Source: Malacoraja senta (Eukaryota). Taken from it: 64,000 bases of DNA. Under the pieces are notes generated by a model, which was given only the letters and a program-made list of their open reading frames with translations, had not been told where the DNA came from and did not search any database. The stretch covers positions 12,836,001 through 12,900,000 of the forward strand of contig CM075989.1 of assembly GCA_038087875.1 (NCBI GenBank), given 5' to 3'. Positions within the stretch are counted from its first letter, which is position 1, and each line of letters starts with the position of its first letter. Made by a program: the position numbers and the translations under genes. Shown here piece after piece: positions 16,871 to 62,849 of this stretch.

Positions 16871-18659
16871 TTATAATGTAATCCAAGTTAACAAAATCCC
16901 AGCACAATTTATTGCTAGGTAATTTAAGTTTAGTAAATGTCACAGTATTGAATATTATCTGCTAATTACCATATAATATTCAATACTGTGAGAGTGTTCA
17001 ATATTGTGACATTTACTAAACTTAAATCACCCAGCTATAAATTGTGCTGGGATTCCGATAACTTGGATTACACCGAAATAAATAAACATAGTAAATAGGA
17101 ACCCGAGTAGCAGTTCAGATCTTCAAGCCTGCTCCACCCATCAACATAGACACAAAAAGCTGGAGTAACTCAGCGGGACAAACAGCATCTCTTCAGTTTT
17201 CTGATTTCTTCAGAAGGAGGGTTTCGACCCGAAATGTCACCCATTCCTTTTCTCCAGAGATGCTGCCTGTCCCACTGAGTTACTCCAGCTTTTTGTGTCT
17301 ACTTTCGGTTTAAACCAGCATCTGCAGTTCCTTCCAACACCACCCATCAACATGTTCATTACTGATCATCCAAAGTCAAATCCTTTGCCAGCTTCCTCCC
17401 CACATCCCTGGATCCTCTCTCCGTCAGATAAATATCGAACTGCTTCTTGCACACGTTTAATGATGTGTCGAGTGCTTTATGTGGCAGAGCATTTCACATG
17501 TTTTCCACTCTTCCCATCTCAGTCCTAAATGGTTTACACCTATTCCTTGGACCGAGACCCCTGGACATGTCCTTTCGCAACATCCTTCCTGCCTCTACCT
17601 GAGTCTTTTAAACTTGACTGACAATGAATCTAATCGACCCAAATCTCCTCATACATCAGACGTGCTTTCCCGGAAATCAGACTGGTGGGACTTTGCTGAA
17701 CTTTCTCCTTAGAAATGGCATTTTTCCTCAGATATAGAGTCCATAACGGCACACAATATTTAAGATCTTGAACAACTGCAGCATGACGCCTGTGCTTCTA
17801 TATTCAAATATATTTACCATGAAGACTAACATACACTTTGTCACCATAACCATAATCTACTGAATTTGAGTGGTGGCAAGTCAATTGCAGGGTCCAGCAT
17901 TCTCCCTATACAAAATAATCTTAAAACTTATGGACTTGTGATCATTATCCCCCAAATGATCTTCCACGGCAACACCAATCACCTGGCCAGGCTCATTTCG
18001 GCTCATCCACTTATTGTTTATAAAAACCCTTTCTGGCTTAAGTCCTCCCTCCACCACCTCCAGTTTAAATTCCATTTGGAATATTTTGGAGGACCAAGAA
18101 ACCAAGAACCAAGAACTCTCTTGGTTACACTTCACAAATCCTGCCCCCTCTAACCCTTTGGCACTGAGCAACTAACTACTGGGGAAATTAAAGTCACCCA
18201 CAAAGACAACTCTTACAATAAGTCGTCACAGTTCTCCTGAGATGCTGCCTGATCTTTTGAGCTACTCCAGCACTTATTTTGTAAATCAGCATCTGCGGTT
18301 CCTCATTTCTACACCAAGCCAACACTGCTGGCTCATCTGTGGAGAGAAGGAATGGTTGACGTTTCGGGTCGAGACCCTTCTTCAGACTAGAATTATTGAA
18401 TTAGTTTAGGGGTCACGGGTTATAGGTAACATAACTGATAAGATGTGGGCCTCGGTCAAGGAAGTGGAGCTGAGGCCAAAAACAGAAGAGCCACGATCTC
18501 ATGAAGTGGGGCAGCAGACTGATGATGGGGCAGCAGCAGACTGATAATGGGGCAGTAGCAGACTGATGGGGCGGACGATCTTCCCCTGTTATTTCTGCTC
18601 TCTGTCCGTCGGGCTTTGCTGCCTTCTGATGCCGAGCTCCCACAGCTGTTGGCTCGGCT

Positions 18660-19589: not shown

Positions 19590-19618
19590 GTGTGTGTATG
19601 TATATGTGTGTGTATGTA

Positions 19619-21232
19619 CAATGGCTTGCAAAAGTATTCATACCCCTTGAACTTTTCCACATTTTGTCACGTTACAACCACAAACGTAAATGTATTTTAT
19701 TGGGATTTTATGTGATAGACCAACACAAAGTGGCACATAATTGTGAAGTGGAAGGAAAATGATACATGGTTTTCAATTTTTTTTACAAATAAAAAACTGA
19801 AAAGTGTCGCGTGCAAAAGTATTCAGCCCCCCTGAGTCAATACTTTGTAGAACCACCTTTCGCTGCAATTACAGCTGCAAGTCTTTTGGGGTATGTCTCT
19901 ACCAGCTTTGCACATCTAGAGACTGAAATTTTTGCCCATTCTTCTTTGCAAAATAGCTCAAGCTCAGTCAGATTGGATGGAGAGCGTTTGTGAACAGCAA
20001 TTTTCAAGTCTTGCCAGAGATTCTCAATTGGATTTAGGTCTGGACTTTGACTGGGCCATTCTAACACATGAATATGCTTTGATCTAAACCATTCCATTGT
20101 AGCTCTGGCTGTATGTTTAGGGTCGTTGTCCTGCTGGAAGGTGAACCTCCGCCCCAGTCTCAAGTCTTTTGCAGACTCTAACAGGTTTTCTTCCAAGATT
20201 GCCCTGTATTTGGCTCCATCCATCTTCCCATCAACTCGGACCAGCTTCCCTGTCCCAGCTGAAGAAAAGCATCCCCACAGCATGATGCTGCCACCACCAT
20301 GTTTCACAGTGGGGATGGTGTGTTCAGGGTGATGTGCAGTGTTAGGTTTCCGCCACACATAGCGTTTTGCATTTAGGCCAAAAACTTCAATTTAGGTCTC
20401 ATCTGACCGGAGCACCTTCCTCCACATGTTTGCTGTGTCCCCCACATGGCTTGTGGCAAACTGTAAACGGGACTTCTTATGGCTTTTTTTCAACAATGGC
20501 TTTCTTCTTGCCACTCTTCCATAAAGGCCCGATTTGTGGAGTGCACGACTAATAGTTGTCCTGTGGACAGATTCTCCCACCTCAGCTGTGGATCTCTGCA
20601 GCTCCTCCAGAGTTACCATGGGCCTCTTGGCTGCTTCTCTGATCAATGCTCTCCTTGCCCGGCCTGTCAGTTTAGGTGGACGGCCATGTCCTGGTAGGTT
20701 TGCAGTTGTGCCATACTCTTTCCATTTTCGGATGATGGATTGAACAGTGCTCCGTGAGATGTTCAAAGCTTGGGATATTTTTTATAACCTAACCCTGCTT
20801 TAAACTTCTCCACAACTTTATCCCTGACCTGTCTGGTGTATTCCTTGGGCTTCATGATGCTGTTTGTTCACTAATGTTCTCTAACAAACCTCTGAGGCCT
20901 TCACAGAACAGCTGTATTTATACTGAGATTAGATTACACACGTGGACTCTATTTACTAAGTAGGTGACTTCTGAAGGCAATTGGTTGCACTGGATTGTAT
21001 TTAGGGGTATCAGAGTAAAGGGGGCTGAATACTTTTGCACGCGACACTTTTCAGTTTTTTATTTGTAAAAAAATTTGAAAACCATGTATCATTTTCCTTC
21101 CACTTCACAATTATGCGCCACTTTGTGTTGGTCTATCACATAAAATCCCAATAAAATACATTTACGTTTGTGGTTGTAACGTGACAAAATGTGGAAAAGT
21201 TCAAGGGGTATGAATACTTTCGCAAGCCACTG
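19619..21232 (-). mobile_element. Full-length Tc1/mariner DNA transposon (1614 bp, about 213-bp TIRs of IR/DR type, TA target duplication)
   Basis: TA|CAATGGCTTGCAAAAGTATTCATACCCC...GGGGTATGAATACTTTCGCAAGCCACTG|TA. TIRs 19619-19831 and 21020-21232 differ at only about 4 positions. GCAAAAGTATTCA is repeated at both ends of each TIR. Confidence 0.97.
19837..20855 (-). pseudogene. Tc1 transposase (DD34E), inactivated
   Basis: MKPKEYTRQVRDKVVEKFKAGLGYKK... then a 1-nt deletion in an A-run near 20780. GRPPKL motif. SDET followed by in-frame TAA at 20392-20394. FQQDND-34aa-E (SPDLNPIE). Confidence 0.95.
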
Positions 21233-23262
21233 TATATGTATGTGTGTGTATATGTGTGTGTGTGTATGTGTATATATATGTGTGTGTGTGTGTATATGTG
21301 TGTGTGTATATATATGTGTGTTTGTATTTATATATGTATATGTGTATTTATGTATATATATGTGTGTGTATTTATGTATATATACACACAACAATTTTTC
21401 TCGTTTTTTATATTATTTTCTGTGTACTATGTTTACGTATTTTGTGCTGCTGCAAGTAAGAATTTCACTGTTCTGTCTGGGACATTTGATAATAAAACAC
21501 TTGACTCTTAAACAAAGTGGATGACTGGTTTCCACACCTTGTGAGCAATGTTGCTGGTCATGATTTCACATGGAATGTGGAGTGGGGGGGGGGGGGGGAG
21601 GGGAGGGGTCAAAGGGGATGCTGCACTTGGTCTGCAGACGCAGTAATGTCGCTGACCTTCTGTCGGACCTGATCAAAACCTACAGCAGATCCAAATAGAG
21701 AACAAAGGTCACATTGAGGAGACCCAGGAGGACAGGAATAGAGTGAGTGGTTAAATGATTGATGACACTTCGTGCAAAGAAAGGAGAAAATTCACAGTGT
21801 GTGAGGAAGATCAAGGGAAGGATGGGTCACATAGTCCCTGTGGCCATCCCATGTCCCACTACCCACAGCCAGTTCTTTCCTCTCTGCATCATTCAACCCC
21901 CCACCGACCACAGACCTTTTTTTAATCACAGCTCCAACTTTCTTTAAAGTTCCTGGTTCTTTAAATCACAAACATTTTTCAGCCCAAACACAGAGGCATA
22001 CTGTTAGATTCCAAAAGTGAAGAGCTGGTGTTTAGAACATAGAACAAGTAACAGTGCATTAAACGGTATAACATGAAGGGTCAATCTAAGATAGAAACCA
22101 CCGTGCACTTATTAATGTCTTAATACTCCCTGGGTTATGCACCAAAACATCACAGCCACCCAGTGAGAAATTAAAACTAATGAGGGTAACAGCATTGCCT
22201 TAAAATCAAGCATAAATGTGCACTCTTCGTAGCTTTCATGTAAACCATGTAAAAATGTCACAGTAATAACAGTTTTTATGTAAGTTTGTACTAACCCTTG
22301 TGGTTGTTGGTGGGTTAGAAGTTAAAATTGTGAAAACAGAACTCCACTCACTATAAGCCTGGATTTAATACAGCAGCCAATAAGCCAGTCCACTCTGAGG
22401 ATTGGTTAGTGTGAAGCAGTAAGCCATCATTAAACTCCATCAGCACCCCTCTCACACTGCCTGCTGGCACACTGCCACAATAACTAGACCCACTGCCTCA
22501 CTGCACTCGTGAACCAGGTTCAATCATAACCCTGGGTGCTGCCTGAGACTGTGTGGATTTTCCCAGATATTCCAGTTTCCTTCCACATCCCAAAGTTGTG
22601 CAGGTGGATTAGTTGTCCTCAGTGGAGCGAATGGCTGGAGAATTGAGGCACTGGTGTGTATGTGTGAGAGAGACTGGATTGCTGGGACACATGGGATTAT
22701 GGAACTGATGGGAATGCTCTGGAAGCTAGTATAGACTCAACGGACTGAATAACCTCCTTCTATGTCATGACAAAATAAAACTTCTGCCTCATTCACAGAC
22801 CCATTCCCACATCCTCAACAGATCCTTCTTTCAGCAGATATCAACACTGGGATAATCGTCCTTTATGTGCAGTAAACTTGGGAAACTTTAAGGGCTGCAC
22901 TTAAACTAAGCTATAAACCTCCTCTAGGTTGGAATGATTGTCACCCAGTCCTCCCTGAATACTATTTAATTCCTTGCACCAACTAATTTTCCTCCCAATT
23001 ACCACAATTTTAGAGCATAGCATATAAACAGTACAGGATAGGAACAGGTCCTTTGCCCCAAGATATTTCCCCCTCGCTCCCTCTATGTCCAGCACCCCCC
23101 CCCCCATGTCAGTGGGGGCATGTACAGCCAGTACAGTATTCTGTTTTAATTTTGTTTTTTTAGGGATCTGCTCTTGATGGTATTAAATGAGATTAGGTGT
23201 TGACATCTGAAGATCAGTGGTCTACAAAAACTCATCGCAGCTGTAGGAACAAAATTAAAGAG

Positions 23263-25775: not shown

Positions 25776-28058
25776 CAACGCCAGAAATCCAGATTAAGAA
25801 CCTGGAGATGGTGGATGCAAAAGTTGTCATCTTCCCAAACTCCATAGATTCCATAAAATGCCACAGATTGGAAGGTATTAAATGTAACTTGTAACTTGGC
25901 TACTTTTGAAAGGAGGGAGAGCAAAAAATTGGGAACTTTAGATCAGACAGCATGACATCAGCATCAGAGGAAATATTGGGAGTATTATTAAGGTAGTGAG
26001 AATAGGGATGGGCAGACACAGCCTAGTTTGAAGAAAATATGACAGTTCTGTTGGAAATTTTTGAGGTTGTAAATAGCAAGGTCGATAATTAATTGCCATG
26101 GTACATGTGGATTCTTTAGAGGCCTTTGATGTGTGATTGCGATTTTATTAAACAAAATTAGAGCACTGGTTATTTGTAGTTTATTCTGGTGGATTGAGAA
26201 AACAGAATTTTGGATCTAATGTGATTGGTGATGGCCTCATTTTTTCTTAATCTATATCTTGAACTTGGAAAAGGGGATTGTGTGATATGCCAAGTTTTGG
26301 GTGAGGTTGGGGAAACTGCGTAGGAATAAACTGGCGAGTGGGTGAGGGAGACCGAGTGAGGAGCAGTGAAGCATCAGAAGGCAAAATCCTTCCAGATGTC
26401 ATTTCAAGCCTCTTTTTTTTGCTTGTTTGTCTGGTATGATATTTCCAGAGAATAACATACATTCTTCCTGTATTTACTGAAAAGATTACAATCCCCCTTG
26501 AGAAATTTGACAGACAAAAGCTTTGGAAATTTTATCTCCCAACAGCAGAAATCTACAGCGAAGCTGAACGAGAAAATCTGTTTTATCAATTAGGAAAACG
26601 GCATGTAATTTGTCAGCAACAATGACAGGTTTTGGGAAGTTCATGCAAACCCCTGAGAAACAAAATGTTCAAGCAAATCGAGCTTTTAAATACTCTTCCT
26701 GGTAGATTGTGAATGCTTCCTCAGTGAACTTTCAGTGAATTTATATTTTGGGATTGTGGGTTATTCGTCTGTGTGACAGAGTTGAAATGAATTTATTTCA
26801 CAGATGTCCTTTTACATGATACAAAACATTTATTTCTTAAAGCACTGGGACATTTATTAACTGAAGGTTTCATTCTGCTGAGTGGAGTCTTTTAGAGTTG
26901 CTTGTGAAAGATAATTTGCTTTTCTGGACTGGAAGTTCTGAATGTAAAAATGACATTGTAAATGGCATGTGAGCAACCACTCAGCAACTAAAAACTTCAC
27001 AAAAAGAGGCAAGGAAAACAAATGTCACTTTTAGAATTTAGATTGTTGAGGGGAATATTTTCGCTGGTTCTATATTATCAGTTCTTTCTATCATCTATGG
27101 TCCATAAAAAGAAAGACAGCAACAGAAAAACTTGACATGATAAAAATGTGTTGGTTTTCAGTCTAAACAATGAAGACACAAGAGACTGCAGCAGCTGTAA
27201 TCCTGAGCAAAAAGCAAAGTGCTGGAGGAACTCAATGGGTCAGGCCACATGTTTGGAGGGAAATGGACAGTTGATGTTTGAGGTCAGGACATTTCTTCAG
27301 TCTGATGCTGCTTGACCTGCTGAGTTCCTCCAGCACTTTGGCAATTTGGCAGTGTTGGAGAATTAAGAACTTCGGATGGAGGCGACGGCTGCAGCCTTTA
27401 TGGCTCGCTGCAGCATGGAGTTTGAAAATGGCTCCAAACCTGGCGACTGTTGTATATGGTCTCAGTAGGCTATTTTTATACACTTTGTATTTGATCTGGG
27501 ATTTTATTTATCAAGAATAATAATTTACTGAACTATATGCAAAAAAAAAAGATTTCACTATTACCTTGGTACATGTGATAATAAAGAACCATTGAGCTAT
27601 TAGAAGGCTTGGTTTGAGGTGAGAGGAGAAAGATTAAATAGGAACCCAAGGGGTGACTTCATTCAATGGGGATGACATGTATATGGAGCAGGCTGCCACT
27701 GTGGAAGTAGTTGAGGTAGGTGCAAGAATGTATTGAAAGACATTTGGACAGGCACATAGACAGGAAAGGTATCGAAAGGTGTGGGTCAAATGCAGGTAAA
27801 TGGGGCTAGCTTAGATGGGGCACCTTGATGGCATGGATGAGTTGGGCTGAAGGTTCTCTCCATAAAAAATAAAAATAAGTAACAATTCAATTTTCCTAAA
27901 GCTTCTAAATCTCCTTCATTTTGTAATTACTGAATGGGTGGGGGACGGAGGATGAAGGCAGGTGGAGAGATGGTGGGGAAAATGGGAGCACACCGCAGGA
28001 CAAGTTGAATCAGTTGTCATTCTTATTGAATGGCAATACTAATTCAAGGGACCAATTG

Positions 28059-28738
28059 GAGGGAGAGTTCCTTTCACAGCGTGTGGAGAGTCTGTGCCAG
28101 GGGTTAAAGATGCGGGGACGGCAGGAGTGTTGAGAAGGAGGGGGTCGGAGATCATGTCAGACTCACTCACCGTTGCCGCAGCGCTCCGGGCACGGACAGC
28201 AGAACTGGCCGCCACTTCCGGGGAAGGAAGCAGCTCAGGTGACTGCGAGCGGCCGTCGGGACCCGACAGCAGAACCGGCTGCCACTTCAGCGCCTTCTGC
28301 CGGCCAGCTCACATCTGGCAGTGCTCTCCGTCTGAACACCTCTCACCTGCCGCTCGCCGGCTTCGCTCATGTCAGCAGCTTCCCGCAAATCCTTAAATTC
28401 CCACAGCCGAGTAACCTCAATTGGTCCCTTGAGCGCGCTGTCAGAATTTAAGGATTTGCGGGAAGCGGCTGACATGAGTGAGGCCGGCGAGCGGCAGGAG
28501 AGAGACGGATGGCACTGGCTGGGGTGAGCGGGGGCCGGCAGAAGGGGCTGTCCGGTCCCGGCGGCCACTCGCAGCCACCCGAGCTAATTCACTCCCCGGC
28601 CACAATGCGAAGGCTCCGTGCCCAGAGCGTCGCAAGTGGGTTACTGGCCCCGATCCCCTCCTTCACAACGCTCCTGCCCTCCCCGCAACTTTACCCCGGG
28701 CCAGACTCCTCAAACACTGTGAAAGGAGCTCTCCCCCC
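28059..28738. repeat. About 680-bp imperfect GC-rich palindrome (MITE-like)
   Basis: Arms pair across a centre near 28420, e.g. 28348-28400 vs 28445-28497, and ggagagttcctttcacag vs ctgtgaaaggagctctcc at the ends. Confidence 0.8.
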
Positions 28739-29789
28739 ATCCCGGGAAATACAGTATTTAAAAACATAAAGCACCAAGAAATGTACTTACCATGTTATCG
28801 GTACATGAACTCCATTCTTCACTCTTTGTTTCCTAAGATACACTTAAAATAATGACAATCCATATTTGGAAAACCCGCCAAGAAACTCGCGCTGCGCATG
28901 CACAATAGGCTGCTGCGCATGCGCAGTACTGCAAAGGCAGAATTTCAGCTGCCTTCAGCCCCGCTTGTCATTGACGGCTTGAAGCAGCGCTGACGGCACG
29001 TGGGCTGCACAGACCTTCGCGTGTTACAAGTGCTGCGGTTGAAAGGCACGGAGAATTATGCCTACCTAAGAGATCGATCTCTTAGATAGGCATAATTCTC
29101 CCATGCCTTTACTATTTATATTTAATAATTGCCATTTCATAATTTTAGTCAGGGTAGGCAGTGCCACAGACTCGTCACCTTCTCTGCCCCCCAATTATAC
29201 TGGGCTTCCACATGCTCTCAGACCATCACCGTGGTTCCTGGCATCACCCAGTTGGGCCCAATGACTTTCTGCCTTTGACCATGATCTCCTCTCGTTGGAG
29301 AAAACTCAACCCTGGTCTATCCAAACTCTCCACCATCCCTGGTCCCAGTCTGGAGAATATTCGTTACTACTCCTCTACAGTAATTATATAATTAAACATG
29401 GGGAACAAAACCTCGTACACAGTACCCACTCTTATCAGAGCCCATATGATTACAGTATCTTTACTCCTGAACTCAAATCCTCTCATAGTAAAAAGCCAAC
29501 ATCTTCTTAATCACTTACTGCCCCTGCGTGTCACCGTTTGTGTACAAGGACATTCAAGTCCCTTAGATCATCCAACACTACCCAATCTCTCACCCACCAC
29601 TTAAAATTATTCAGCTTGCAGATTCCAACATGCATTCCAGTGTTGTACTCTGAGCTTTGACCAAGGTGGCACAGATCCTCCTCTGGCCGTTGAATTCTAC
29701 AGTTCATTGAGAAAGCAAAGCATGATATGAGACTGAATTATACTGCTATAAGGAAGGAATGTTAAGTGTTGCTATTCAGGTTTTGTGGT

Positions 29790-31707: not shown

Positions 31708-31863
31708 AAGGTAGACAAAAGCGCTGGAGAAACTCAGCGGGTGCAGCAGCATCTATGGAGCGAAGGAAATAGGCAACGTTTCAGGCCCGAAACGTTGCCT
31801 ATTTCCTTCGCTCCATAGATGCTGCTGCACCCGCTGAGTTTCTCCAGCACTTTTGTCCACCTT
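31708..31863. repeat. Near-perfect hairpin (about 72-bp stem) from a Penelope-derived palindromic repeat family; many partial copies in the window
   Basis: gtagacaaaagcgctggagaaactcagcgg...gcaacgtttc-aggccc-gaaacgttgc...ccgctgagtttctccagcacttttgtccac. Confidence 0.85.
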
Positions 31864-32629: not shown

Positions 32630-33060
32630 ATCTTCTAGATTACCTGGGGTCATCGGGTGTTTCGGGTCTCACAGCATCAGACACCCTCGCCCAGGCAACC
32701 CAGCCGGGGTTGATCAAGCCCCAACTTGCGTCCCAGCAGCAACCGCCCACGGATCAGCCCTCTTAATCCAAACCCACTAGCAGCTTTCTCTGCGGCTTCG
32801 CTTGTGGATTAAATGGCCCTCTTCTTTGCCAGCCCCGTAATGCCCAACTGGTTGCAAACTGCAGCCATTCATTCCGGGTGCTGGCTGAGGGCCATTTAAT
32901 CCGTTGCTGTGGAACTACTCCGCAGGGGTTGGGAGACTCTAGTGCGTGGAGGGACTGGGCTCTGTGGGGTGAGTCCTGGCCGGGCTCCTCCTGCGTCTCA
33001 CCAGGTTCAAGGCCTGCACCTCTTTCTCCATCTTCGAGCATTTCATTCTTGCCTGATGGA
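32630..33060 (-). mobile_element. Internally deleted HERO-like (restriction-like endonuclease clade) non-LTR retroelement
   Basis: N-terminal-type peptide GETQEEPGQDSPHRAQSLH...RIKWPSASTRNEWLQF joined to a degenerate C-terminus AAEKAAS-W-IKRADPW. The 3' UTR is GGGCTTGATCAACCCCGGCTGGG...GACCCGAAACACCCGATGACCCCAGG. Family assignment is from recall. Confidence 0.6.
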
Positions 33061-36048: not shown

Positions 36049-37524
36049 GTAATATCTGATCTGATCTGCTCTTCATTGTAAAGTGGATGTAAAATAAGTC
36101 CCATCCCTTGACATCATCTTCAAAGGAAATACCTTTATCATCTGTGAACAATTCAAAATTATTGGCAGGGATACCTCAATGGTTCTTTATTGTCACATGT
36201 GCCTAGGTTCAATGACGTCTGACGTTGCACACTTCCTATGGAAGGTCGTTGATCTGAAACTAGGTTGGGGTTAATTTTTTCAAGGGACAACTTATTAGTT
36301 TAGTTTTAGTTTTTTTTAAACTTTAAAAAAAACTATTCTGATCAAATGCTAAGTTACCAAGTGTGAAAAATATTCTTGTTAAGATTTAGTGTCAACTGAT
36401 AGCATAATTACAAATTGCTCTTCCTCCACCTCCTTCGTGGATGCCCTTGAACTGTGGAGTTACCCAGAAGCACTCTAGTATAGTAACCCTCTCCTCATTC
36501 CTTGCACAACTTCCAGTCCTGCATCCTGTGTTTATCCCGGAGGGATATTCCTGAGCAGTAACAATAGTCTCCATTTCCCTTTGGCAACATCCAGAGTTCA
36601 ACCAGAGGTTGAAAATCTCTTTGGTCTTCATTGCAATGTTTCCCTCTCACCCTCGATACAGACCGAACATTATCTTCCTAATTCCCTATGATTGTAAAAT
36701 AAGAACAGAAAATACTGGGTCACTTGGCAAATTAAACAGATTCTGTGGAACAAGAAACCAAGTTCAAGTTTCAGATTTCATTAGATGTAGGGAAATGTCA
36801 GAGGTACGCAGGTTTTAAGATGCAGAGTAAGTGGAAGGGAAGAAATAGAAAAGATCCATGAAATGCAGGAAGAATACATAGCATGATAATGTGTGGAGTG
36901 AATACTGGAAATCCAAAATAAAAATCCTGGAATACGATTGTACAGGATTATTAAACTTGATGATGTGTCTGAAAGACTATAATCAGTGAATATTGTGTTA
37001 CTTAATTAGAGGAGCAGTGAGAGTAGAAGGGCGGAGAATACGAGCGACGGGCGAGTAGGAGCTGAGGATCGCAGTAATGGGTGGACAATCGCCCAATCTC
37101 CTGTCATCTGCATGCAGAGGAAACCCTGCTGTCAACAGTGCAGTAAATTTAACTGAATGAAGTAGATCACTGCTTCATGGGAATGAACGTTTGGGTTCCT
37201 GGACAGTGGGAAGAAAGGAGCGGTATTGGCTGGTGTTGAGGGTGCACAGCAAGTTGCTGAGAGATGGGGAGTGGAGGTTGCTGGAGATGAAAGAGTGAAA
37301 CTGAATTATGCAACAAGAACACTCTCGTGGGGATGCTGAAAGGGGAAGGATTGGGAATTGTACCTGGCGGTGTATGGGAATTATGCAGGATGATCCCTTG
37401 CATGAAAGTTGAGAACAAAAAGATTTCCACTCAGCCTGGGAGCAGAAAGAATAGATCTGGATTACATAAGGAAATGCTTTGGTCCTTGAATTAACTCTGA
37501 CTGAGCTTGAATGGTGTGTTGCAG

Positions 37525-39873: not shown

Positions 39874-41648
39874 GTCAGTCCTCTCTTCACTACACCAGGG
39901 CCAACAGTCAAGGAAATAATCAGACTGAGGAAGTTCAAACTCGTGTGCAGGTGGGGTACGTTTAAGTACGACTACATCTCCAGCGCATTCCACCACTCCA
40001 GGTCTCCTACAGTGATCAGTAGTCAATGTTGTACCATAATTTACAATTGGAAACAGTTCAGACGTTGAGGCTTAGATGTTGACCCAGAGTGGATGGAGGA
40101 ACTCTGAACTAGTCCGAAGAAATATTTTCCATCCATATGACAATTTAGCTCCACCTAGTGCTGACACAGCACCTCCTCAGTGGAGTAGACACAAAATGCT
40201 GGAGTAACTCAGTGGGACAGGCAGCATCTCTGGGGGAAAAGGAATGGGTGACATTTCTGATTGAGACCCGACCCGAAACTCTCTTGACCAGAAACATCAC
40301 CCATTCCTTCTCTCCAGAGATGCTGCCTGGCCCGCTGAGTTACTCCAGCATTTTGTGTCTATCTTTGGCGTTTGTCTTGGATTGGATTGGGGAAAAAAAA
40401 AAAAAAAAAGCGTTCGGCACGGACTTGAAGGGCCGAGATGGCCTGTTTCCGTGCTGTTATAGTGATATGGTTATATGATTGTGTGACCACATGCAGAGTA
40501 TGTCCAGATGCCTTGCCTGTATATGTTCCAGTGGGATTACTCCCCGAAATTTCCTTGAACGTACATTCCTTCCAGGGGATTGGAATGGGGTTTTCCTGGA
40601 TTGAACAAAGGTTCCATTGAGTGACATTTAGTCTTTGTATAAACCAGTCTTGAGATAAAGACATCCTGCAGCATTTGAGGCTTTAACTGACACTACATTT
40701 TTGTGCATTTTCTCCACATTTAATAGGACTTGCCTTTTCCTTTTAAATAAACATTTCCAGAGCATCTTCGGGCTTTCCTTGGTTTTACTTGTCGCTGTTA
40801 TTTCAGGCACTCTCTTTGTTTTCCTAATTCAATCCTGCACCTTCTAAACTCCTCCAGCAATTTTGAAATGCAAAGCTCTAACAGGTCTGCATTACTCAAC
40901 ATCCATCAGGAGCCAGAAATATCTTTGCAGGAATATACTTTATTTCTCAAGGTGTGAGGGTTGTTGGCAAGGCAGCATTGAATCTCGTCACTTAACATCT
41001 TTGAGATGGTGGTCATGAGCGGCTTTCCTGAACTTCTGCATCCGCATGATGTGCTCCCACTGGGCTGCTTGGGAGGGTGATCCAGTACTTAGACCCAGTG
41101 ACGGAACGATAATAAATACAGTCAGGGTGTGACTTTGGGGCAACCTATGAAGGTGCTGTTTCCTTGCAGTCTAAAAACTGCATATCCCATCCTTCAAGTC
41201 TTGGATGCTATTTACCTTTGAGTAACTGGTTCTAGTCCACTTCTGAGAAACCATTCCTCACCTTGTCATGTTCACTGCTTACAAAGTGCTCCGTCAATAA
41301 AGTCAGTGCCATCTCCTTTCTCAGGCTTGCTATGTTCTGATGTAAAAAGTTCATGCACTTCAATAATTCTGCGTCTTCTCATACAATATGGCTGGATTCT
41401 ATTTAAAACCGGCACGGGTCTCTTTGTGAAGATACTCTCGCTACCCAGAGTCACGCAGCTACAGATACCCCTGGCTCTCCCTCGCTGGGCAGGTCTGGTT
41501 TGATGGGTGGTTCTGACATTTTCTGCTTTTGCCACCGGATTGTACTTGCATTTTGCTTCCAACAGAACTCACAATTCTTTTGTTCTTTAACAGGACATGT
41601 GTGCGTGCCTGTGTGTGTATAGATGAAGATCTGTTCTTGTTTCCACAG

Positions 41649-44020
41649 TGCGGACCGCTCCTTCGTGTAACCCGACTCCTCAGAGCTACTTCATACGACT
41701 TCCTTCCGACTGTTATCAAAACCTGAGCCAGTCTTTTTACTACGATGTGGGTAAATGTCCAGTAACTGCATGCGCCAGCATTCAAGAACCAGAGGGGCAG
41801 TGCAGAGATGCCACAACCTATTGCTGTGGAGCTGTGAAACTAGAAGACAGGGTGATTTCCTGCTCCATGTACACACTTCCCATTCGAGTGGTGAATAAAT
41901 GTGGATGCCAGAGATGCGTCGATAGCAAAGCAATTGTCCGCGGCCGTGCAGTGGCTGCCGACGATGGGGAACCCATGCGATTTGGACTGATTTTTATGGG
42001 TGGAAAAAAAATCAGCATGACTGGGTACAAAGGCACCTTCTCGATTATGGTTCCTGCAGACATTGACAGGTTAGTCCTCACTTTTGTGGATCGCTATCAG
42101 AAGTTTGTTAATACCACAAAGGTACTTCCCTTTAACAGAAAAGGAGGTTCCGTGTTTCACGAGGTTAAACTCCTCCGGAAGAAGCCAGAGATAATGTTGG
42201 ATTGTTCCATCAGCAACACCATCAGCCTCGGGTCAAAGGAAAACCAAGACCCAGTAGCTGAACTGGAGATCCCACCCAACTCTTTCTACAGGGAGAATGG
42301 GGAAATATACAGAGGGTTGGTGAAAGCCAGTGTCACCTTCCTGGATCCAAGGGATATCTCATTGGCCTCAGCAGCACAAAGTGATCTCAACTTTATTGAC
42401 GAAGAAGGTGATGTTCTACCTTTGAGGACATACGGCATGTTTTCTCTGGATTTTAGAGATGAAGTAGCAAACGATAGACTCAATGCAGGACAGGTGAAGC
42501 TATTTTTTGACACTGCCCAAGTCAATATACCAGAACACTTGGAGCAAATGAAGCTGTGGTCACTCAATCCTGAAACTGGCTTCTGGGAAGAAGAAGGTTC
42601 CTTCACTTTTGTTAGAAGTCGTCGAGGTAAACGTGAAGAGCGAACCTTCCTGGTGGGCAACATGGAGATTCGGGAGAGAAGGCTTTTTAACCTGGATGTC
42701 CCAGAAAGCAGAAGGTGCTATGTGAAAGTCCGATCCTTTCGAGGTGATCGGTTTACATCTGGAGATCAGTTAGAGGGAGTGGTTGTATCTCTCATTAACC
42801 TGGAGCCCACGCCAGGATTTGCCTCCAACCCCCGGGCATGGGGTCGCTTTGATAGCGCAGTTACTGGTGCCTATGGGGCTTGTGTGCCCGCTTTCTGTGA
42901 TGACCAACAACCACACGCTTACTCTGCTTATGTGACGGCGACCCTTGGAGGAGAGGAGTTGGAGGCTGTGGCTTCCTCCCCCACTGTGAATTCCAACACA
43001 GTGGGTGTTCAAGAACCTTTTCTGCACAAGCTCCAGTACAGGAGGTCAGATCATGAGGATCCCAGAGATAAAAAGACAGCTTTCAGGATAAATGTGGCCA
43101 AACCCAATGCCAATTTACCAGCGGAAATAAATGGTCCCATTTATCCATATGAGAAATTAAGAGAGTGTGAAACGGCACCTTTTAGTGCCGGCCATTTCCG
43201 ATTTTACAGAGTAGAGGGGGACAGATACGACTACAACACCGTAGCTTTCAATGAAAATGACCCAATGAGTTGGACAGAAGACTACCTCGCTTGGTGGCCG
43301 CGGCCAATGGAATTCCGGGCTTGTTATATAAAGTTGAAGCTGAGTGGAACGCATGAAATTACAGTGAGATCTCGAAACATGGGAGGAACTCACCCTCGGA
43401 CAGTGGGTCAGTTGTACGGGCTCCGGGATGTGCGGAGTACCCGTGATATGACCCAGCCTGGCGTTTCTGCTGTTTGTCTGGAGTTCAAATGCAGTGGCAT
43501 GCTCTACGACCAAGAGAGGGTTGACCGCACACTGGTGAAGATCATCCCTCAAGGTCACTGCCGCATGGAAAATATAAACAGCATGTTACGGGAATACCTG
43601 GTCAACCATCTGCCTCTCGCCGTCAACAATGACACCAGTGAGTTTACCATGTTGGCTCCACTTGATCCTCTTGGCCACAATTACGGCATCTACACGGTGA
43701 CTGACCAGGATCCAGTCATAGCCAAAGAGATGGCACTGGGGAGATGTTTCGATGGAAGTTCAGACAGTGTCTCGAGAGTCATGAAGTCTAATGTAGGCGT
43801 GGCATTGACCTTCAATTGTGAGGACAAGCCGGTGGGTCACCAGAATGTCTTCCAGACCCTGCAGAACTTCCCAGGACAGCAGCCTGTATATAATCAGAGG
43901 ATGGGGAGAGGTAAGCGAGGCCGGGGAAAGGGCGTTAAACTGCGAGGACTTCGCCTGGACAAAAAACTGAGAAGACAGAGAGAGGTACCCAGAAGGAAGG
44001 CATTACAGCCTGTTGTTTAG
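41649..44020 (+). CDS. CILP: CILP large terminal exon (furin site RRGKR at 42620-42634 and C-terminal C2 polypeptide)
   Basis: ttccacag|TG, about 790 codons to TAG. Hallmark CILP motifs LRTYGMFSLDF, LWSLNPETGFWEEEG, KREERTFLVGNMEIRERRLFNLDVPESRRC, DPLGHNYGIYTV. The seven core exons sum to 3477 nt (in frame). VPESRR motif and MTFMT linkage favour CILP1 over CILP2. Confidence 0.97.
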
Positions 44021-47288: not shown

Positions 47289-48644
47289 CTAGAGAGAAAC
47301 ACGGGTGAAACATTAGTTAAGAGTTCATGTGCACAAGCTGTAGAGTTGATCTTCTCTGCCAATCCTCTTAGGTATGCAAGAACAAAATCAAATGAGTATC
47401 ATAAATTGCATTCAATATCAACATCATAGTGCCAGAGATAATAAATGTATATTTCAACTTCCCAATAATATTATCTCGCCATAGGAGTCTGATAACGAGA
47501 TCTCACCATCATGTGATACAGCACAGAAACAACCTCATTGACCCATGCCAACATTTTTGTCCATCTACACTACTCCCATTTGCCCCATTAGGTCTGTGTA
47601 TCTATGTAAATATCTGTTTAAATGCCTCTTTAACTTAGTGATTCCACCAGCTCTTCTGGCAACAAATTCCAGATGTCAACCACTATCTGAAAGAAGGATT
47701 TACCCCTCAGATCACCTATAAAACACATTCCACTCAACTTAAACCTATGGCCCCCTGTTTTTGATATATACTATGGGGGAAATATTCTGGCGGTCTACCA
47801 TATCTATGCCTCTCAAAATGTTAAATGCTTCTATCAGGTAACCCATTGGCCTCCTTCAATCCAAGGAAAACATCAAATTTCTCTCCCTATCTCGTCTTTC
47901 ATCTGGCACCATCCTTGTAAATCTCCTCTGCACGCTCTCCAGTGCAGTCACATCCATCCTGCAGTGCGGCAACCAGAACCATATACAACATTGCAAGTGC
48001 AATCCAGCCAGCATTTCGCAGAGTTGTTACAAAACCTACTGACCCTTATACTCAGTGTCCTGACGTATGAATCCATGCGTGCCTGCTTCACCATCCTATC
48101 CCTCTGCGTTGCCACTTTGAAGGGACAATAGATCGCTCGGTCTGTTCATCACATTCCTTGGCACCCTACCATTTACTGTATATGTTCTACCCCTATTTGA
48201 CCTCAAAATGCATCATGTAGATAGTTCCTGTCATTACCGAGGTCTCACTTGCTCGTTACCACAGTAACAGTCAGCTCGTCTGCTTGCTAATGAGGCCACA
48301 AATCCCATTGTTTAAGACCAAGGTCGCAGAAGTAATAAATCGGAAGGAACAAGACAGTGGCTATCCGGCAGGAGTGAGATAAGAGACAAAGGGTCCACTC
48401 CAAGACAAGTCTCTTCTCATTCCTACCAGATGGTATGGAAGTACACACATAGCAGCAGATGTCTGCTATTTTACTTAATACTCACGTGATTGTTAGTCGT
48501 TTAGCAGCACACTCATGTTATTATTAGTCATTGAATTAAATCATTTATTCAATATCCTTTGGTAAATAAGTTACTTATTTCTACTTTTGTATCTTTGTAT
48601 TCGTAGTAATTCATTTGTATCTTTGTATTCTTAGTGATTCAAAC

Positions 48645-49149: not shown

Positions 49150-50233
49150 TGATAATGGCCACTGTCTTGTTGCTTCAGATTTATTACTTCCGAGACCTTG
49201 GTCTTAAACATGCCAGACTTCCAATTTTTGGCTGTTGTTTAGTGAATCTGAGAGAGGTTACAATGCAGTATTGACTCTATTCTAATATTGAATGTTCATC
49301 GGCTGGTTACTCACTCCTTAACATTCACTTCTTCCATGCAGTCATTAGCAATCTTGATATTTTTTCCTATCATCATTCTTGAATCCCTGGATTTAAAACA
49401 CCGCGGAGCCTGGGATCTGAGATCGCCAGAGTCGGAGCTCCAACCAGCGCGGCCTGAGAACTTCGGGAGCTGCGGTCTCCAGGGAGGAAGCGGCCGCTCC
49501 AGACATTCCAAGCCGCTGAGGAGTGTTCACCCGACGCCGGAGTTCCATCTTCCCGGCAAGAGGAAACATCGGACTGCCGTAGCGTCAACTGTGGAGGCCA
49601 CAATAGGCCTGACTATGGGTGAACAGGGGACGGGACTGGACTTTGCTGCCTCCCCCCACAGTGGGAACCATTGTGGGGGGATGTTTTTATGTTTATTGTT
49701 AAATTCTTTAATGTTGTGTCTTAACTTTATTCGTGTGCTGCAATGGCAAGTCAAATTTCACTACACCAATTGGTGTATGTGATAATAAATGTCCTTTGTA
49801 TCCTTTGAAGATCCTCACAGACCTTTAACCATGTGGCACCCACCAGGTCTATTCAGGCTGTAAACAATGTAATTCTTCTATTCTGTGATGGCTATTTTAA
49901 TCCTTTGACTAACGCACACACATTCCTGGGTCCATTAATTCACCTTTCACCTCCCCCCCCCCCCCCCCCCCCCAACACACACACCTCCAGCCCTTACTTC
50001 ACTCTGGCCGATTCTTCACAGAATTACAAATCCCCTTGTGGGGTCACAGAAAAATGGAATGAGCTAAGCAGACACAGGAACCGTCTGCAGAATGGAATTA
50101 GAAAGGGATAGGCAACTCACTTCAGAGCCTGTGAACTGTACCGCTGCAAACATGGTTGTTAACAAAGTAAAGGAAAATTCAGACACCTTCAGATGCACCG
50201 AAATTAAGACGGAATGCAATGTCAAAATGTTAC

Positions 50234-56596: not shown

Positions 56597-56672
56597 CAAA
56601 TGTGATTCCATCTTTGCTTTGTTCCCATTTATTCTCTATATGTTCTGGCAGACTTTTCAATACTGACAAGAG
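56597..56672 (-). CDS. MTFMT: MTFMT exon 5
   Basis: tttcag|CTC...TTT G|gtgagt, 76 nt: LLSVLKSLPEHIENKWEQSKDGITF. Confidence 0.93.
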
Positions 56673-59542
56673 CTGAAACAATTAAATCAGTAGGTTTAAA
56701 ATTAATTGATTCAGCCGGATTGCAAAAAATCAGTAGGAACAGGGGGCTATTTAGCCCATCGAGCCTGCTCCAGCATTGAATAGGAACATGGCTGATCTAA
56801 CATTCCACACCTACCTTCCTGCCTTTCACCCATTATCCTCAATTCTCTTACTGATTAGAAATCTATCTTTCTCAGTCTTAGATATAACCAAAGACCATAT
56901 TTCTCTGCAGCAACGAGTTCCAAAGACTCACAATCCTTATGAAAAATTCTACATCATCTCTGTCTTAAATAGGAGTCTCCTTATTCTGAAACCATTCTCT
57001 CTGCTTCTAGAGTGTCACATGAGAGGAAACATCCAATCAGCATTTAACTTGTCTGGCCTCCCCCAAATAATCTTCTATCTTTCACTGATCACCTTTCACT
57101 CTTCTAAACTCCAGTGAGTAGAAGGCCAGCCTGTTTAACCTTCGTATCCAGTATCATCAAGTAAACCTCCCCCGAGCTGCCTTCAATAACATAATACTCC
57201 TCCTTAAAGAGGGGAACCAACCCATTTGTGGTGTGCGACATGTGGTCTCACTGCGGCCATGTATAGTTGCAGAGACTTCCCTACATTTACACTCTGACCT
57301 CCTCAAAATAATGGCGGACATTCCCTTGGCCTTCGCCATTACCTGCTTCATTTGCGTGCTGGGTTTCTGTTTTTCATCCCCACATTCCTTTGTGCTGCAC
57401 CTTTTTGCCGTCTTTCTCCACGTAAATACTGTGCTTTCTTCCAAAACAAAGTTCACACTTTCCCCACATTATACCCCATTTGCCTATTTTTCCCCCCTAC
57501 TCACTTATCAATCTCTCTGTGACTTGTTTACATCCGCCTGAAAATAACATAGAAACATAGAAAATAGGTGCAGGAGGAGGCCATTTGGCCCTTCGAGCTA
57601 GCACCGCCATTCATTGTGATCATGGCTGATCGTCCCCTATCAATAACCCATGCCTGCCTTCTCCCCATAACACCATTGGGTTTTATCCTGTGATTTAGCT
57701 TTTTGTGACCACCTTGTCAAACATATTCTGAAAGCAACATCTTCAGGTTCCCTTCCATCCACTTTCGAGACTTGCTCATAAAACTCCAATGAATGCATCA
57801 GACATGATTTCCAAGCATAAAGCCAAGCTAACTGCTGGAAAACACTGATATCCCACATGTGCTACTCCTACTGTGAATAACTCGGCTTGATCAGGACTTT
57901 GATAGTGTCTGACCAGCTTTTACAGCCTAATGGATGTTACGGTTGGTAATATCCCAACACACTTTAAATTCACTGTTTTAAAGTTGTTACACGGTGGTTA
58001 TAATACATTTACCAGTGAGCCCTAACGAGTGCTCGGGAAGCAAGGTGCAGGTGCGTTTCAAGGGAGAATGGGAGCCGTCACTTGTGAGCTAGATGTTGCG
58101 CCATCACAATTTACTAATAGCTGGACCGCGATGTATCAGAATTACACTGTACTTCCTTTATAGTCTAGTTTGAATCACCTCAGCACAAAAATCAATTTGC
58201 AGTGCAGATCCATCACTGGCCCCAACATCTGTCCTTTCTCGGAAAGACCTCTCCAGTTTTCCTACACTCACTTCCGTAGCTTTTACTTTTTTTACTAATT
58301 TAACTTTTACAATTTTTCCAGTCAGCACCAAGAGCTTTCCAGTTTACACATATTTGTGATATTCTCATTTCCATCTCTGACCCAATGATAAAGATGGAAC
58401 AACAATAGTCACATCTTTGTCCGGCTCTGCCAAAAGTGAAGTATTACTGATGCTGCACATATGTAAATTCTGGAAATAATCAGCACGCAGGCAAGTTACA
58501 CAGGTGTCTGTGCAATTTCCTTTGAAAGTGTTGATTAATTTTATTTCCACTGTGCTCAAAGGGAGCAAGACCAGACTTCTCTCTGAACCCTAAGAATTGT
58601 GCAAAGAGATCAGACCTCAGTGGAGTTTGAACATTCTCCCTGTGAACCTATTCGTTTTCTCTGAATGCTCCGATTTCTTCCCACACTCCAAAGACGTACA
58701 GGTTTGTAGGTTAATTGGCTTTGGTAAAATTGTAAAAATTGTCCCTAGTGCGTAGGATAGTGCTAGTGATCGCTGGTCGGCGTGGACTCAATGGGCTGAA
58801 GGGCCTGTTTCCATGCTGTATCTCTAAAGTACAGTAATAAAACATTCCAGGTGGCTGTTTCTTCAGGGCTATGTAGAATTCCACTAGAATTTTGGTTTGC
58901 GACTCAAATCTTCTTGCAATGAAAGCTGACATCCTCTATCAGACTACTTCCTTATTCAGTAGTCCCCTACATTTATTTAAAATTCCACATTTAATTCTGT
59001 CATTGTTTTTGTGTCAAAAGTCAGGAATTCCCTCTACAGCAACACCTTTTTCCCCATTCCCCTTTATCAACATATTTTAAATTGTGGATGCATGGATAGG
59101 GAATGGCCAAATGTGAGCGATGGGACTAGCTTGAATAGGGCATCTTGGTCAGCATTGACAAATTGGGCTAAAGGGCCTGTTTCCCCGCTGTGTGACACTA
59201 TGACTCTAATTACCTCATGGTAACTGGGTCAGAATCCAGGCATTCCTCATCCTGGAGGAATTCCTGGATTCTGACCCAGTTACAATTCAAACAAAACTAT
59301 TGTGAAGAGACTTGTTGGATGACTGCAAGGACATGTAGGTGACTGTTTGATGTTTGATTTTTTTCTATGATGGGGGAAACAGGCCTTCGCCAGCACTGAC
59401 CATAGCAGGTCAACATCTTCCTCATTACCATCCACTCAAAGCCAGTCAGGGGTGGACAATAAATGCTGATCTTGGCATCAATGTCTACCCACAGACTGTT
59501 TTAAGTGAAAATCACAGCTAGTGCAAGTTTGAATATTTTTAC

Positions 59543-59645
59543 CATTTCAGCACCTTTTTCTGCCAGTATCACTCCTAGTTCACCAGACGTGCATCGCGGA
59601 GGAACAGGACACTCCTGCTGCAGTAGAATGGGGCCAACGTCAAAC
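59543..59645 (-). CDS. MTFMT: MTFMT exon 4
   Basis: tttgtag|G TTT GAC...ATG|gtaaaa, 103 nt: FDVGPILLQQECPVPPRCTSGELGVILAEKGAEM. Confidence 0.95.
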
Positions 59646-60800
59646 CTACAAAAATCAAACATCAAACAGTCATCTACATGTCCTTGCAGTCATCCAACAA
59701 GTTTCTTCACAATAGTTCTGTTTGAATGCACAGCTAATCATCGAGAAAGTGATCAGATAAATTCAGAAAACCTCTCGTGGAAATAAAAAAATGTTTGGAA
59801 AAAGACAATTAAAGACTCGTTATCCCAATGGCTCTGTTATGACTCATGAAAGTAGCTGCTCACAGCCAAGATTCCTTTTACTTTCCTCTGGAATGCACTG
59901 CCTGAGGGGGAGATGGAGGTAGACATTCTCACTGAGGGGGAGGTGGAGGTAGACACTCATTTTGGAAGTATCTAAACAAGTACTTGAATCACCAAGGCAT
60001 TGAAGGTACAGATCAAATGCTGGTAAACTAGCGTAGATAAGGTCCAGATGGTCAGTACAGATATTGTGTTTCTATGCTGCATGTGAGTATGTGTAACATT
60101 TCTGCAGTTTCCACAAAAGATGTGTAGTGACATATATCTTGAACACATGTGGCGTAAGTATTTGTCAATCTCTTAACATAAAACAGAAATGCTTCTTTAA
60201 ATATAAAACAAAGAACAGTACCGCACAGGAACAGGCCATTCAGACCACAATGCCCATGCCGAACTTGATGCCAAGTTAAACTAATCTCTTCCTGCAAGTG
60301 ATCAAAATCCCTCCAATCCCTGCATATCCAAAGGTAACTTAAATGCCACTATTGTAATTGCCTCCACAACCACCTTGGCAATGTGTTCCAGGCACCCACC
60401 ACTCTCCATGTAAAAATGTACCCTGCACATCTCCTTTAATCTTTTTCCCTCTTACCTTAAACCTATGTTCTCGAATATTTGACATTTCCCCCCTGGAAAA
60501 AGGATCTGTCTACCTTACCAATGCTTCTTTCAGTCTCCCCTCAATCTCCAATGCTCCAGAGAAAACAATCCAAGTTTGTCCAACCTCTCCTTATAGCTAA
60601 TACCCAATAATTCCAAGCAGCAATTTAGTAAACTTCTTCTGAACCCTCTCCAAAGCCTCTACATCCGTTCTGTAATGGGGCGACCAGAACTGAATACAAT
60701 ACTCCAAATGTAACCTAACCAAAGTCCTGTGAAACAACCTAATTTGTTAATATCATTGGATTTCTCCCAGTTCCACAAGTTTCTGTACAAGTCAACGTAC

Positions 60801-60923
60801 CTTTTTGGTCGAATCTGCATGATGGTGACACCAGCCATTCGATCACCATGGATCAGTGTGTGAAAAATTGGAGCAGGACCTCTCCACCTTGGAAGCAGAC
60901 TGGGATGGAGGTTCAATATTCCA
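60801..60923 (-). CDS. MTFMT: MTFMT exon 3
   Basis: ccctag|T GGA...AG|gtacgt, 123 nt: formyltransferase motif [19 protein letters not shown]...[10 protein letters not shown]. Confidence 0.97.
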
Positions 60924-61451
60924 CTAGGGACAAGACAGAGATCTGTTAGATCTGATATTGTAGGCAGCATGAAAGAAAGATACAGAAGGAGGGCATGAAT
61001 CAGTAGAGTATATTCCACATGTGCTAACTCACTCTCTGGAGGATTAAGTAAGCTGCAAAGGAAAGAAAGAGGTACAAAAGGGAGGCATAGTCAACAATAA
61101 ATAGGAGAGTGGTTCACAAGGCCTTTTCATTGTTGATCTTGAATCTCAACAGCACTTTTTTTCAAATCCCCATATCCCTTTTGATTAAATATCATCCCCA
61201 TATCCTTTTTGATTAAAGATCTGTCATAATTTTACTTAACGGCAGAGTAGGGGCGAGGTGCTGAATGGCCTCTTATGTTTGGAAACACGAGACGACAAAG
61301 GACAGTAACCAACTTATTAAGGAGTACAAAAACCCAAATTTAATGGAGTCCTGTCTACTTCAGATTTCTCTCACTACAGTAGTACATCATTAAAACGTCC
61401 CCAGTCCAGGATTTGACCTCAGGATTTGCAATAGGCAGAAGATATACTCAC

Positions 61452-62300: not shown

Positions 62301-62400
62301 CCCGTCGGTTTACTGCACCCGAAGTGAAATGTTCCGCCTGGAGACGCGGGACGGTGAGCGGGGGCGCAGGAAGGCCGCCGAGGTGTCACTCCCTCAGAAG

Positions 62401-62436
62401 CAAAGATACTAGAGGAACGTTCCTCTAGTATCTTTG
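62401..62436. mobile_element. 36-bp perfect-palindrome micro-MITE with 8-bp TSD (CTCAGAAG)
   Basis: ctcagaag|CAAAGATACTAGAGGAAC-GTTCCTCTAGTATCTTTG|ctcagaag. Confidence 0.88.
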
Positions 62437-62849
62437 CTCAGAAGGAGCTCGGTGGCCAGTTCCCAGCTCCATGCCGTGGCCCACAGGCCGAGGGGTTGGG
62501 AGAGGGGGCACGCTTGCCAAGATGAACCCAGTCTGGAGAAAGATTCCAGCCCGGAACGTCGTCTATCAATGTCCCCCCAGAGATGCTGCCTGGCTCACTG
62601 AGTTACTCCAGTATTTGTGTTCTAGACAAGATTCTACCATCTGTAGTTCATTGTGACTCCAGTGATGAGGGATTGATCTGGATCTGGATGTAGTACGCTG
62701 AAAAGCTCTAGGTAGAGCATCACTTAGCACTATGATGGTGGTGGACGTGCTAGTTGAGATGGAGATGCTTTTGGAGATGCATCTTTGTATGTGTTGGTGT
62801 TTTAGAGATCTCTGATGCTGGCTGGTAGGGTATTCCAATCCCTTGCTGT

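What the first reader, a model, noticed from the sequence alone, without database searches (positions are those of the whole stretch)
59285..59727. 78-bp inverted repeat brackets MTFMT exon 4 and covers its branch-point/polypyrimidine region
Seen: 59285-59362 and 59650-59727 are reverse complements at 75/78 positions. One arm ends within about 4 nt of the exon-4 acceptor boundary; the other lies in intron 4. In the pre-mRNA the three differences give one G-U pair and two A-C mismatches (preferred ADAR sites). Neither arm resembles a repeat elsewhere in the window. Known: exon 4 (103 nt) is frame-shifting, and its skipping is the effect of the common human MTFMT c.626C>T allele. Inference: the duplex could loop out exon 4, causing skipping and NMD or exon circularisation, as a structure- or editing-controlled dial on mitochondrial translation initiation. 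It could also be a neutral recent inverted duplication.
Basis: partly seen in the sequence, partly recalled or inferred. Interest (0 to 1): 0.72.

Follow-up and report, generated by a model that had tools for sequence, protein, structure and literature searches.

The report
Fold-back duplication scar flanking MTFMT exon
A real 78-base mirror-image copy of an intron end sits on the far side of one exon of a mitochondrial-translation gene in a fish genome, but it looks like an old DNA-copying scar that drifts like ordinary intron, and the one RNA data set from a relative shows the exon spliced in normally.

Summary
The inverted repeat is real: 75 of 78 positions, 287-nt loop, enclosing the 103-nt frame-shifting MTFMT exon 4 and covering its branch-point/pyrimidine tract. 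It is not an assembly artefact: one contig of a second sample spans it with 0 differences, at single-copy depth. Both related organisms laid (2 of 2) carry it. That is a multi-switch fold-back event. The arms change at intron rate (6/149 versus 24/573, p=1.0); 0 of 6 changed sites are compensated and a 7-nt deletion faces the branch region. One 'ADAR' A-C mismatch is a recent substitution of this lineage. In a relative carrying the repeat, one unbroken RNA contig (depth 158) joins exon 3 to exon 4; no skipped or circular contig was laid, though contigs drop rare and decayed forms. Verdict: probably a neutral scar; low-level skipping is not excluded.

The parts
59650..59727 (-). 5' arm = native 3' end of MTFMT intron 3 (template of the copy); holds the T-rich tract and branch-point candidates at about -25, -17 and -10
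59543..59645 (-). MTFMT exon 4, 103 nt, AG acceptor, weak-looking GTAAAA donor; skipping shifts frame to a stop at codon 184 in exon 5
   Evidence: spliced to exon 3 in RNA contig of organism D
59363..59542 (-). first 180 nt of intron 4 (rest of the loop), with a decayed repeat remnant next to the copied arm
   Evidence: (table 2)
59285..59362 (-). 3' arm = inverted 78-nt copy of the intron-3 end, in intron 4; single-copy; present in organisms A, B, D
59255..59286 (.). right arm of the 32-bp hairpin: second templated segment, overlapping the 78-nt copy by 2 nt (AT; CAT in both templates)
   Evidence: (I6)
59217..59254 (.). left arm and 6-nt loop of the 32-bp hairpin (template of the second segment)
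60801..60923 (-). MTFMT exon 3 (123 nt)
56597..56672 (-). MTFMT exon 5 (76 nt), site of the premature stop if exon 4 is skipped

Best explanation
The tract 59255-59362 (108 nt) in MTFMT intron 4 is the scar of one complex templated-synthesis event at a DNA break or stalled fork, in an ancestor of organisms A, B and D. Inferred steps: one end folded back on itself over a 6-nt loop and copied 32 nt; the other end primed with a short A run on the T run of the exon-4 pyrimidine tract 287 nt away and copied 78 nt of intron 3; the two new ends joined at a 2-3 nt homology (AT/CAT). Shown: both segments are reverse copies of nearby DNA, they abut, the joints carry these short homologies, the arms are single-copy, and they have since changed at intron rate without compensation. 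The pre-mRNA can form a strong duplex over the branch point, but the acceptor is made 283 nt before the first base of the second arm, so it is probably recognised first (inferred); exon 4 is in the dominant transcript of a relative that has the repeat. Any skipping would be an unselected leak removed by NMD.
For: Junction anatomy (printout; pair I6). Single-copy depth and a 1129-nt contig with 0 differences in a second sample. Organism B: 6 substitutions in 149 arm bases versus 24 in 573 other intron bases, Fisher p=1.0; 0 of 6 with a changed partner; uncompensated 7-nt deletion facing -17 to -23; duplex -106 versus -122 kcal/mol in A; 4 of 5 changes in the 32-bp hairpin break a pair, 0 compensated. 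Organism D: 1-nt deletion at 59315, and contig breaks at 59317-59345/59667-59695 imply a second unmatched change (my inference). RNA contig of 799 nt, depth 157.8, joins exon 3 to exon 4 and alone explains the depth of 5 of 5 exon bins. Background: 17 local inverted pairs in the window, 9 of 17 with no distant copy in it, 0 in 10 of 10 shuffles; a 287-nt loop placed at random in this gene encloses an exon in 1136 of 11871 placements. Known process: PMC7954356 (templated reverse fragments, median 12, max 128 nt), PMC5728401 (snap-back).
Against: No outgroup without the insertion was found, so 'insertion' and direction are inferred. The 365-nt reach is far beyond the 30-bp limit of the SD-MMEJ definition. 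The rate test is weak: 6.2 changes expected, only 2 or fewer would approach significance. 4 of B's 5 own substitutions give G-U wobbles on the transcribed strand (all transitions 5 G-U: 2 A-C, p=0.45), which is what mild selection for pairing would look like. Stems over about 50 perfect bp caused skipping in vivo (Solnick and Lee as cited in PMC2275289). The RNA run is from organism D, is contigs only, and exon 5 lay outside the laid stretch. D's differences were only partly listed (126 rows hidden).
Confidence: 0.72

Rival explanations
1. Same origin, but the duplex forms often enough to cause measurable exon-4 skipping (then NMD) or intronic A-to-I editing, as an unselected by-product. Compatible with the best explanation on origin; differs on molecular effect.
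For: Predicted occlusion of branch point and pyrimidine tract; weak-looking donor GTAAAA; stem length above the in vivo threshold cited in PMC2275289; human MTFMT skip products are nearly invisible in standard RNA-seq because of NMD (PMC13082330 passages).
Against: No skipped, circular or intron-3-retaining contig laid in run X18; longest perfect run in A is 29 bp; inverted Alu pairs also flank many constitutive exons with nearly the same predicted stability (bioRxiv 2025.03.07.642063 passages).
Confidence: 0.3
2. The copy was co-opted as a selected cis-antisense switch: the duplex hides the branch point, exon 4 is skipped, the message decays, and editing, helicases or temperature set MTFMT output.
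For: Retained in 3 of 3 organisms examined; arm ends 4 nt from the acceptor; 4 of 5 B substitutions keep a wobble pair; branch-point sequestration can cause skipping in engineered substrates (PMC2275289).
Against: Flank-rate divergence, 0 of 6 compensated, deletions in both relatives; one of the two A-C sites is lineage-specific with a 5' G neighbour; folding at 10 C and 37 C predicts the same occlusion; exon 4 included in the RNA contig.
Confidence: 0.08
3. The arms are decayed terminal inverted repeats of a small DNA transposon or fold-back element, or two insertions of a rare repeat.
For: The window has transposon-borne inverted repeats, e.g. 215-bp arms around transposase-like frames at 19617-21234.
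Against: Depth over the arms is single-copy in X2 at 85% likeness whereas true repeats 100 bp away reach 300,000; the interior is an old coding exon with its own acceptor; no flanking duplicated target site seen.
Confidence: 0.04
4. Assembly or long-read fold-back artefact.
For: Fold-back chimeras make inverted copies (general knowledge).
Against: Contigs spanning both arms in X2 (0 differences) and X3, and three overlapping contigs in X7.
Confidence: 0.01

Closest known systems
Short-range template-switch insertions, four-point model (Walker et al. 2021, PMC7954356; introduction part 1 and passages read)
   Same: A fragment that is the reverse complement of DNA tens to hundreds of bases away, leaving an inverted repeat; lengths 32 and 78 nt fall within the reported range (median 12, max 128).
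   Different: Two abutting fragments from two templates need at least three switches; no pre-event sequence was available to fit the model.
Snap-back SD-MMEJ / polymerase-theta templated insertions (Khodaverdian et al. 2017, PMC5728401; passages read)
   Same: Short inverted primer repeats, inserted sequence becoming part of a longer inverted repeat, short homology at the final joint.
   Different: Templates lie about 40 and 365 nt away, beyond the paper's 30-bp criterion; the enzyme cannot be tested.
Loop-out exon skipping by inverted intronic repeats (inverted Alu pairs; bioRxiv 2025.03.07.642063 passages; Solnick and Lee via PMC2275289)
   Same: Complementary arms in both flanking introns, stable predicted stem, short exon.
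   Different: Arms are unique sequence, one being the acceptor region itself, so the effect would be masking rather than looping; skipping not seen in the one RNA contig set.
Inverted-repeat-driven circular RNA (Liang and Wilusz 2014, PMC4201285; passages read)
   Same: Repeats longer than 30-40 nt on both sides of an exon.
   Different: Branch point lies inside the stem; exon 103 nt, where test exons of 400 nt or less circularised poorly.
Human MTFMT c.626C>T exon-4 skipping (PMC13082330 passages)
   Same: Same exon, same frameshift and decay outcome if skipped.
   Different: Caused by loss of an exonic enhancer, not by structure; the equivalent base here (59562) is C.

Membership tests
Short-range template-switch insertion | Fragment is the reverse complement of a template within tens to hundreds of bases | tested here: met
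   78 nt at 75/78 from 287 nt away; 32 nt at 94% across a 6-nt loop
Short-range template-switch insertion | Explained by a single out-and-back switch | tested here: not met
   two abutting fragments from different templates: a multi-switch event
Short-range template-switch insertion | Pre-event (ancestral) sequence lacks the fragment | tested here: inconclusive
   both relatives laid carry it; no outgroup locus found
Snap-back SD-MMEJ | Primer repeat and microhomology of at least 1 bp at the joints | tested here: met
   AT shared exactly (CAT in both templates) at 59284-59286; T run at 59358-59363; such short matches also arise by chance
Snap-back SD-MMEJ | [quoted passage not shown] | tested here: not met
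   about 40 and 365 nt
Snap-back SD-MMEJ | Dependence on polymerase theta | not testable with these tools
   historical event
Loop-out exon skipping by inverted repeats | Complementary arms in both flanking introns with a stable predicted stem | tested here: met
Loop-out exon skipping by inverted repeats | Exon is skipped in RNA | tested here: inconclusive
   only the included form laid in 1 of 1 RNA run, contigs, organism D
Conserved regulatory RNA structure | Arms conserved above flanks or with compensatory changes | tested here: not met
   6/149 versus 24/573; 0 of 6 compensated; low power
Repeat-driven circular RNA | [quoted passage not shown] | tested here: not met
   stem covers -5 to -82; exon 103 nt
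Repeat-driven circular RNA | Back-splice junction | tested here: inconclusive
   no such contig laid in X18; library type not on record
ADAR-edited duplex | A-to-G changes in RNA against DNA of the same individual | tested here: inconclusive
   RNA cover of the 3' arm only at depth 3.46, 3 of its 4 differences not shown, none of the 5' arm; DNA run from another sample
DNA transposon terminal inverted repeats | Multi-copy in the genome | tested here: not met
   single-copy depth over both arms (table 2)

The most novel reading that the evidence does not exclude
A DNA-repair scar created a gene's own antisense guard against its branch point, and this has been kept across a clade by tolerating G-U wobbles, giving condition-dependent unproductive splicing of MTFMT (a structure-gated brake on mitochondrial translation initiation) that standard RNA-seq hides through NMD. 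A weaker, separate lead: fold-back duplications of unique DNA may be unusually dense in this lineage (9 of 17 local inverted pairs in 64 kb have no distant copy in the window) and supply such guards genome-wide.
Probability: 0.08. Interest if true: 0.68.

Novelty: new member of a known kind. Interest (0 to 1): 0.22.

Why it matters
As it stands it is a tidy natural example that a roughly -120 kcal/mol duplex predicted over the branch point of an essential, frame-shifting exon can persist through several speciations with the exon still in the main transcript, which fits early co-transcriptional acceptor recognition; and a clear two-ended fold-back junction in a germ line. If skipping were regulated it would be a rare case of a regulatory element born from a repair scar and a first structural control on MTFMT; none of the 15 listed of 216 papers mentions MTFMT, and the search for palindromes in cartilaginous-fish introns listed 2 unrelated papers. 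These searches cover the open library only.

Tried and rejected
No whole genome is held, so copy number came from contig depth. Run search: no holder on record as RNA for the window's organism (no evidence either way); 4 of 24 listed runs were laid. Metagenome scan with exon 2 for an outgroup locus: 575 pattern matches, 0 confirmed. Rfam: 15 matches, all far below gathering score, 14 of them generic microRNA-hairpin fits around the 32-bp hairpin, none on the 78-bp arms; the hairpin is not called a microRNA. The 51-nt gap across the hairpin in an X18 contig (depth 3.46) has no GT-AG ends in any of 4 equivalent registers: not an intron. Change-type counts show no T>C excess in RNA over DNA (20 versus 30) but are dominated by repeats and not used. 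The 'UNIQUE' tag counted 7 because a length-biased complexity filter dropped the target itself and the transposon ends; I recounted from the 'far' column (9 of 17). A 77% 30-nt match at 59002-59031 (I8) was not treated as significant. Earlier scan notes: nothing for this genome or sequence.

Full report
Observation. The pair 59285-59362 / 59650-59727 is an ungapped inverted repeat, 75 of 78 positions, 287 nt apart. The gene is on the minus strand: exons 62232-62036, 61667-61452, 60923-60801, 59645-59543, 56672-56597 and 56372-56281 read in one open frame. Of four exon peptides scanned, exon 3 hits Pfam Formyl_trans_N (E 4.5e-13), exons 4 and 6 give weak Formyl_trans_N and _C hits and exon 2 none. 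Exon lengths 103, 76 and 92 fit the human numbering quoted in PMC13082330 (passages), where c.626 is in exon 4 and c.814 opens exon 7. Skipping exon 4 gives a stop at codon 184, early in exon 5.

A second inverted repeat, 32 bp at 94% with a 6-nt loop (59217-59248/59255-59286), overlaps the intron-4 arm by two bases (z -9.2). So 59255-59362 is made entirely of two reverse copies of nearby DNA. At their joint both templates read CAT and the product shares AT; at the far end the copy stops in the T run just before the acceptor and the recipient continues with T. The simplest account (inferred) is two fold-back syntheses joined by a short homology, with priming on the T run explaining why the copy ends at the acceptor. 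It works like snap-back templated insertion (PMC5728401, passages) and short-range template switching (PMC7954356, introduction part 1 and passages), but it fails the former's 30-bp distance rule and needs more than one switch, so I file it as a multi-switch templated inverted duplication without naming an enzyme. Homologies of 2-5 bases also arise by chance, and no outgroup lacking the tract was found.

Is it real, and is it a repeat? Of 24 runs listed I laid four on 58900-60950. X2 (organism A, another sample of the same study as the best holder, so not fully independent) gives one contig over 59155-60283 with 0 differences and 0 gaps. Depth over both arms is 22.3, the single-copy level, while repeats close by reach 300,000. 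Artefact and transposon ends are rejected.

Conservation. Both other organisms laid carry both arms and the hairpin. For B (X3, one contig 59140-59990, 33 substitutions, 28 listed, all 26 gap letters accounted for) the arms hold 6 substitutions in 149 bases against 24 in 573 other intron bases (Fisher p=1.0); I assigned the 5 unlisted ones to the non-arm class because repeat-covered bins hide single contigs. None of the 6 has a changed partner, and a 7-nt deletion in the copy faces -17 to -23; the duplex falls from -122 to -106 kcal/mol. In the hairpin 4 of 5 differences break a pair in B and one shows A as the changed lineage. For D (X7) the list is incomplete (126 rows hidden); a 1-nt deletion at 59315 is shown, and contig ends at 59317-59345 and 59667-59695 imply a single shared 31-mer bounded by that deletion and one more unmatched change (my inference). 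At 59673 both relatives have C, so the -28 A-C mismatch is a substitution of lineage A; its 5' neighbour is G, a context ADARs disfavour (PMC9638939, start of abstract). By hand arithmetic, two shared mismatches in 78 against 4.2% A-B divergence put the event at roughly 1.6 times the age of that split, with wide error. Against my reading: power is low (6.2 changes expected), and 4 of B's 5 own substitutions give G-U on the transcribed strand (5 G-U: 2 A-C overall, p=0.45).

RNA. X18 (organism D; the tool marks it 'RNA?, probably DNA') has a 799-nt contig at depth 157.8 whose positions 219-343 lie on exon 3 and 344-444 on exon 4, running on at both ends, so it is spliced RNA; the DNA run of D shows no such piece. 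This contig alone explains the depth in 5 of 5 bins over exons 3 and 4, and the end of intron 3 has no cover. So exon 4 is in the dominant transcript of an organism that has the repeat. Limits: one run, contigs drop rare forms, exon 5 was outside the laid stretch, and skipped human MTFMT messages are barely seen in ordinary RNA-seq. Editing could not be judged.

Mechanistic plausibility. Stems of more than about 50 perfect bp altered splicing in vivo, and long loops may let factors bind before the second arm is made (Solnick and Lee, Eperon et al., seen only as cited in the discussion of PMC2275289). Here the longest perfect run in A is 29 bp and the acceptor precedes the second arm by 283 nt. 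Inverted Alu pairs are enriched at skippable exons yet common at constitutive ones with almost equal stability (bioRxiv 2025.03.07.642063, passages; its supplements are closed and were not seen). Circularisation is disfavoured by the buried branch point and the short exon (PMC4201285, passages).

Background. The window holds 17 local inverted pairs of at least 24 bp and 85%; 9 of 17 have no distant copy in the window, counting this pair, the hairpin, one nested pair and one transposon's ends; shuffles give 0 in 10 of 10. Whether the others are unique genome-wide is unknown. A loop of this size placed at random in MTFMT encloses an exon in 1136 of 11871 placements (exon 7 limits approximate); ending within a few bases of an acceptor is rarer and was not counted.

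Verdict. A real, clade-shared, single-copy inverted duplication of known kind, most likely a neutral templated-synthesis scar (0.72). An unselected low-level effect on splicing is open (0.3); a selected dial is unlikely (0.08). Interest 0.22.

Noticed in passing
window 62278-62232 (minus): The first ATG of MTFMT exon 1, in a strong-looking context, is out of frame and stops after 6 codons in a TGA overlapping a second out-of-frame ATG (62258); the first in-frame ATG is 62232. Either two upstream ORFs or an indel error/variant.
   Followed up: no
window 59233-59283: An X18 contig (depth 3.46) lacks 51 nt across the 32-bp hairpin at a 3-nt homology, with no splice-site ends; absent from the DNA contig of the same organism (other sample). 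Reverse-transcriptase jump or a deletion allele.
   Followed up: partly
window 48309-48364 / 49155-49210: Second inverted duplication in MTFMT (about 55 bp, 91%, about 790 nt apart), both arms in the last intron, enclosing no exon.
   Followed up: no
window 16877-17072: Compound fold-back: 76-bp arms with a nested 26-bp palindrome, suggesting repeated priming like the event studied.
   Followed up: no
window 28057-28739, 29042-29110, 62389-62447, 36307-36335, 15302-15337, 32806-32902: Further palindromes with no distant copy in the window; 62389-62447 lies just upstream of MTFMT exon 1.
   Followed up: no
window 19614-21237: Element with 215-bp terminal inverted repeats at 98% around transposase-like frames (19837-20781, minus); Tc1-like by recall, not scanned.
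   Followed up: no
window 50310/50307 (minus): Tandem acceptors 3 nt apart at the likely MTFMT exon 8.
   Followed up: no
window 41627-44020 (plus): 797-codon frame that I recognise by recall as the last exon of CILP, tail to tail with MTFMT; not scanned.
   Followed up: no
window 31708-31863, 9634-9763, 40186-40361: Near-perfect palindromes built from a high-copy repeat family of this genome.
   Followed up: no
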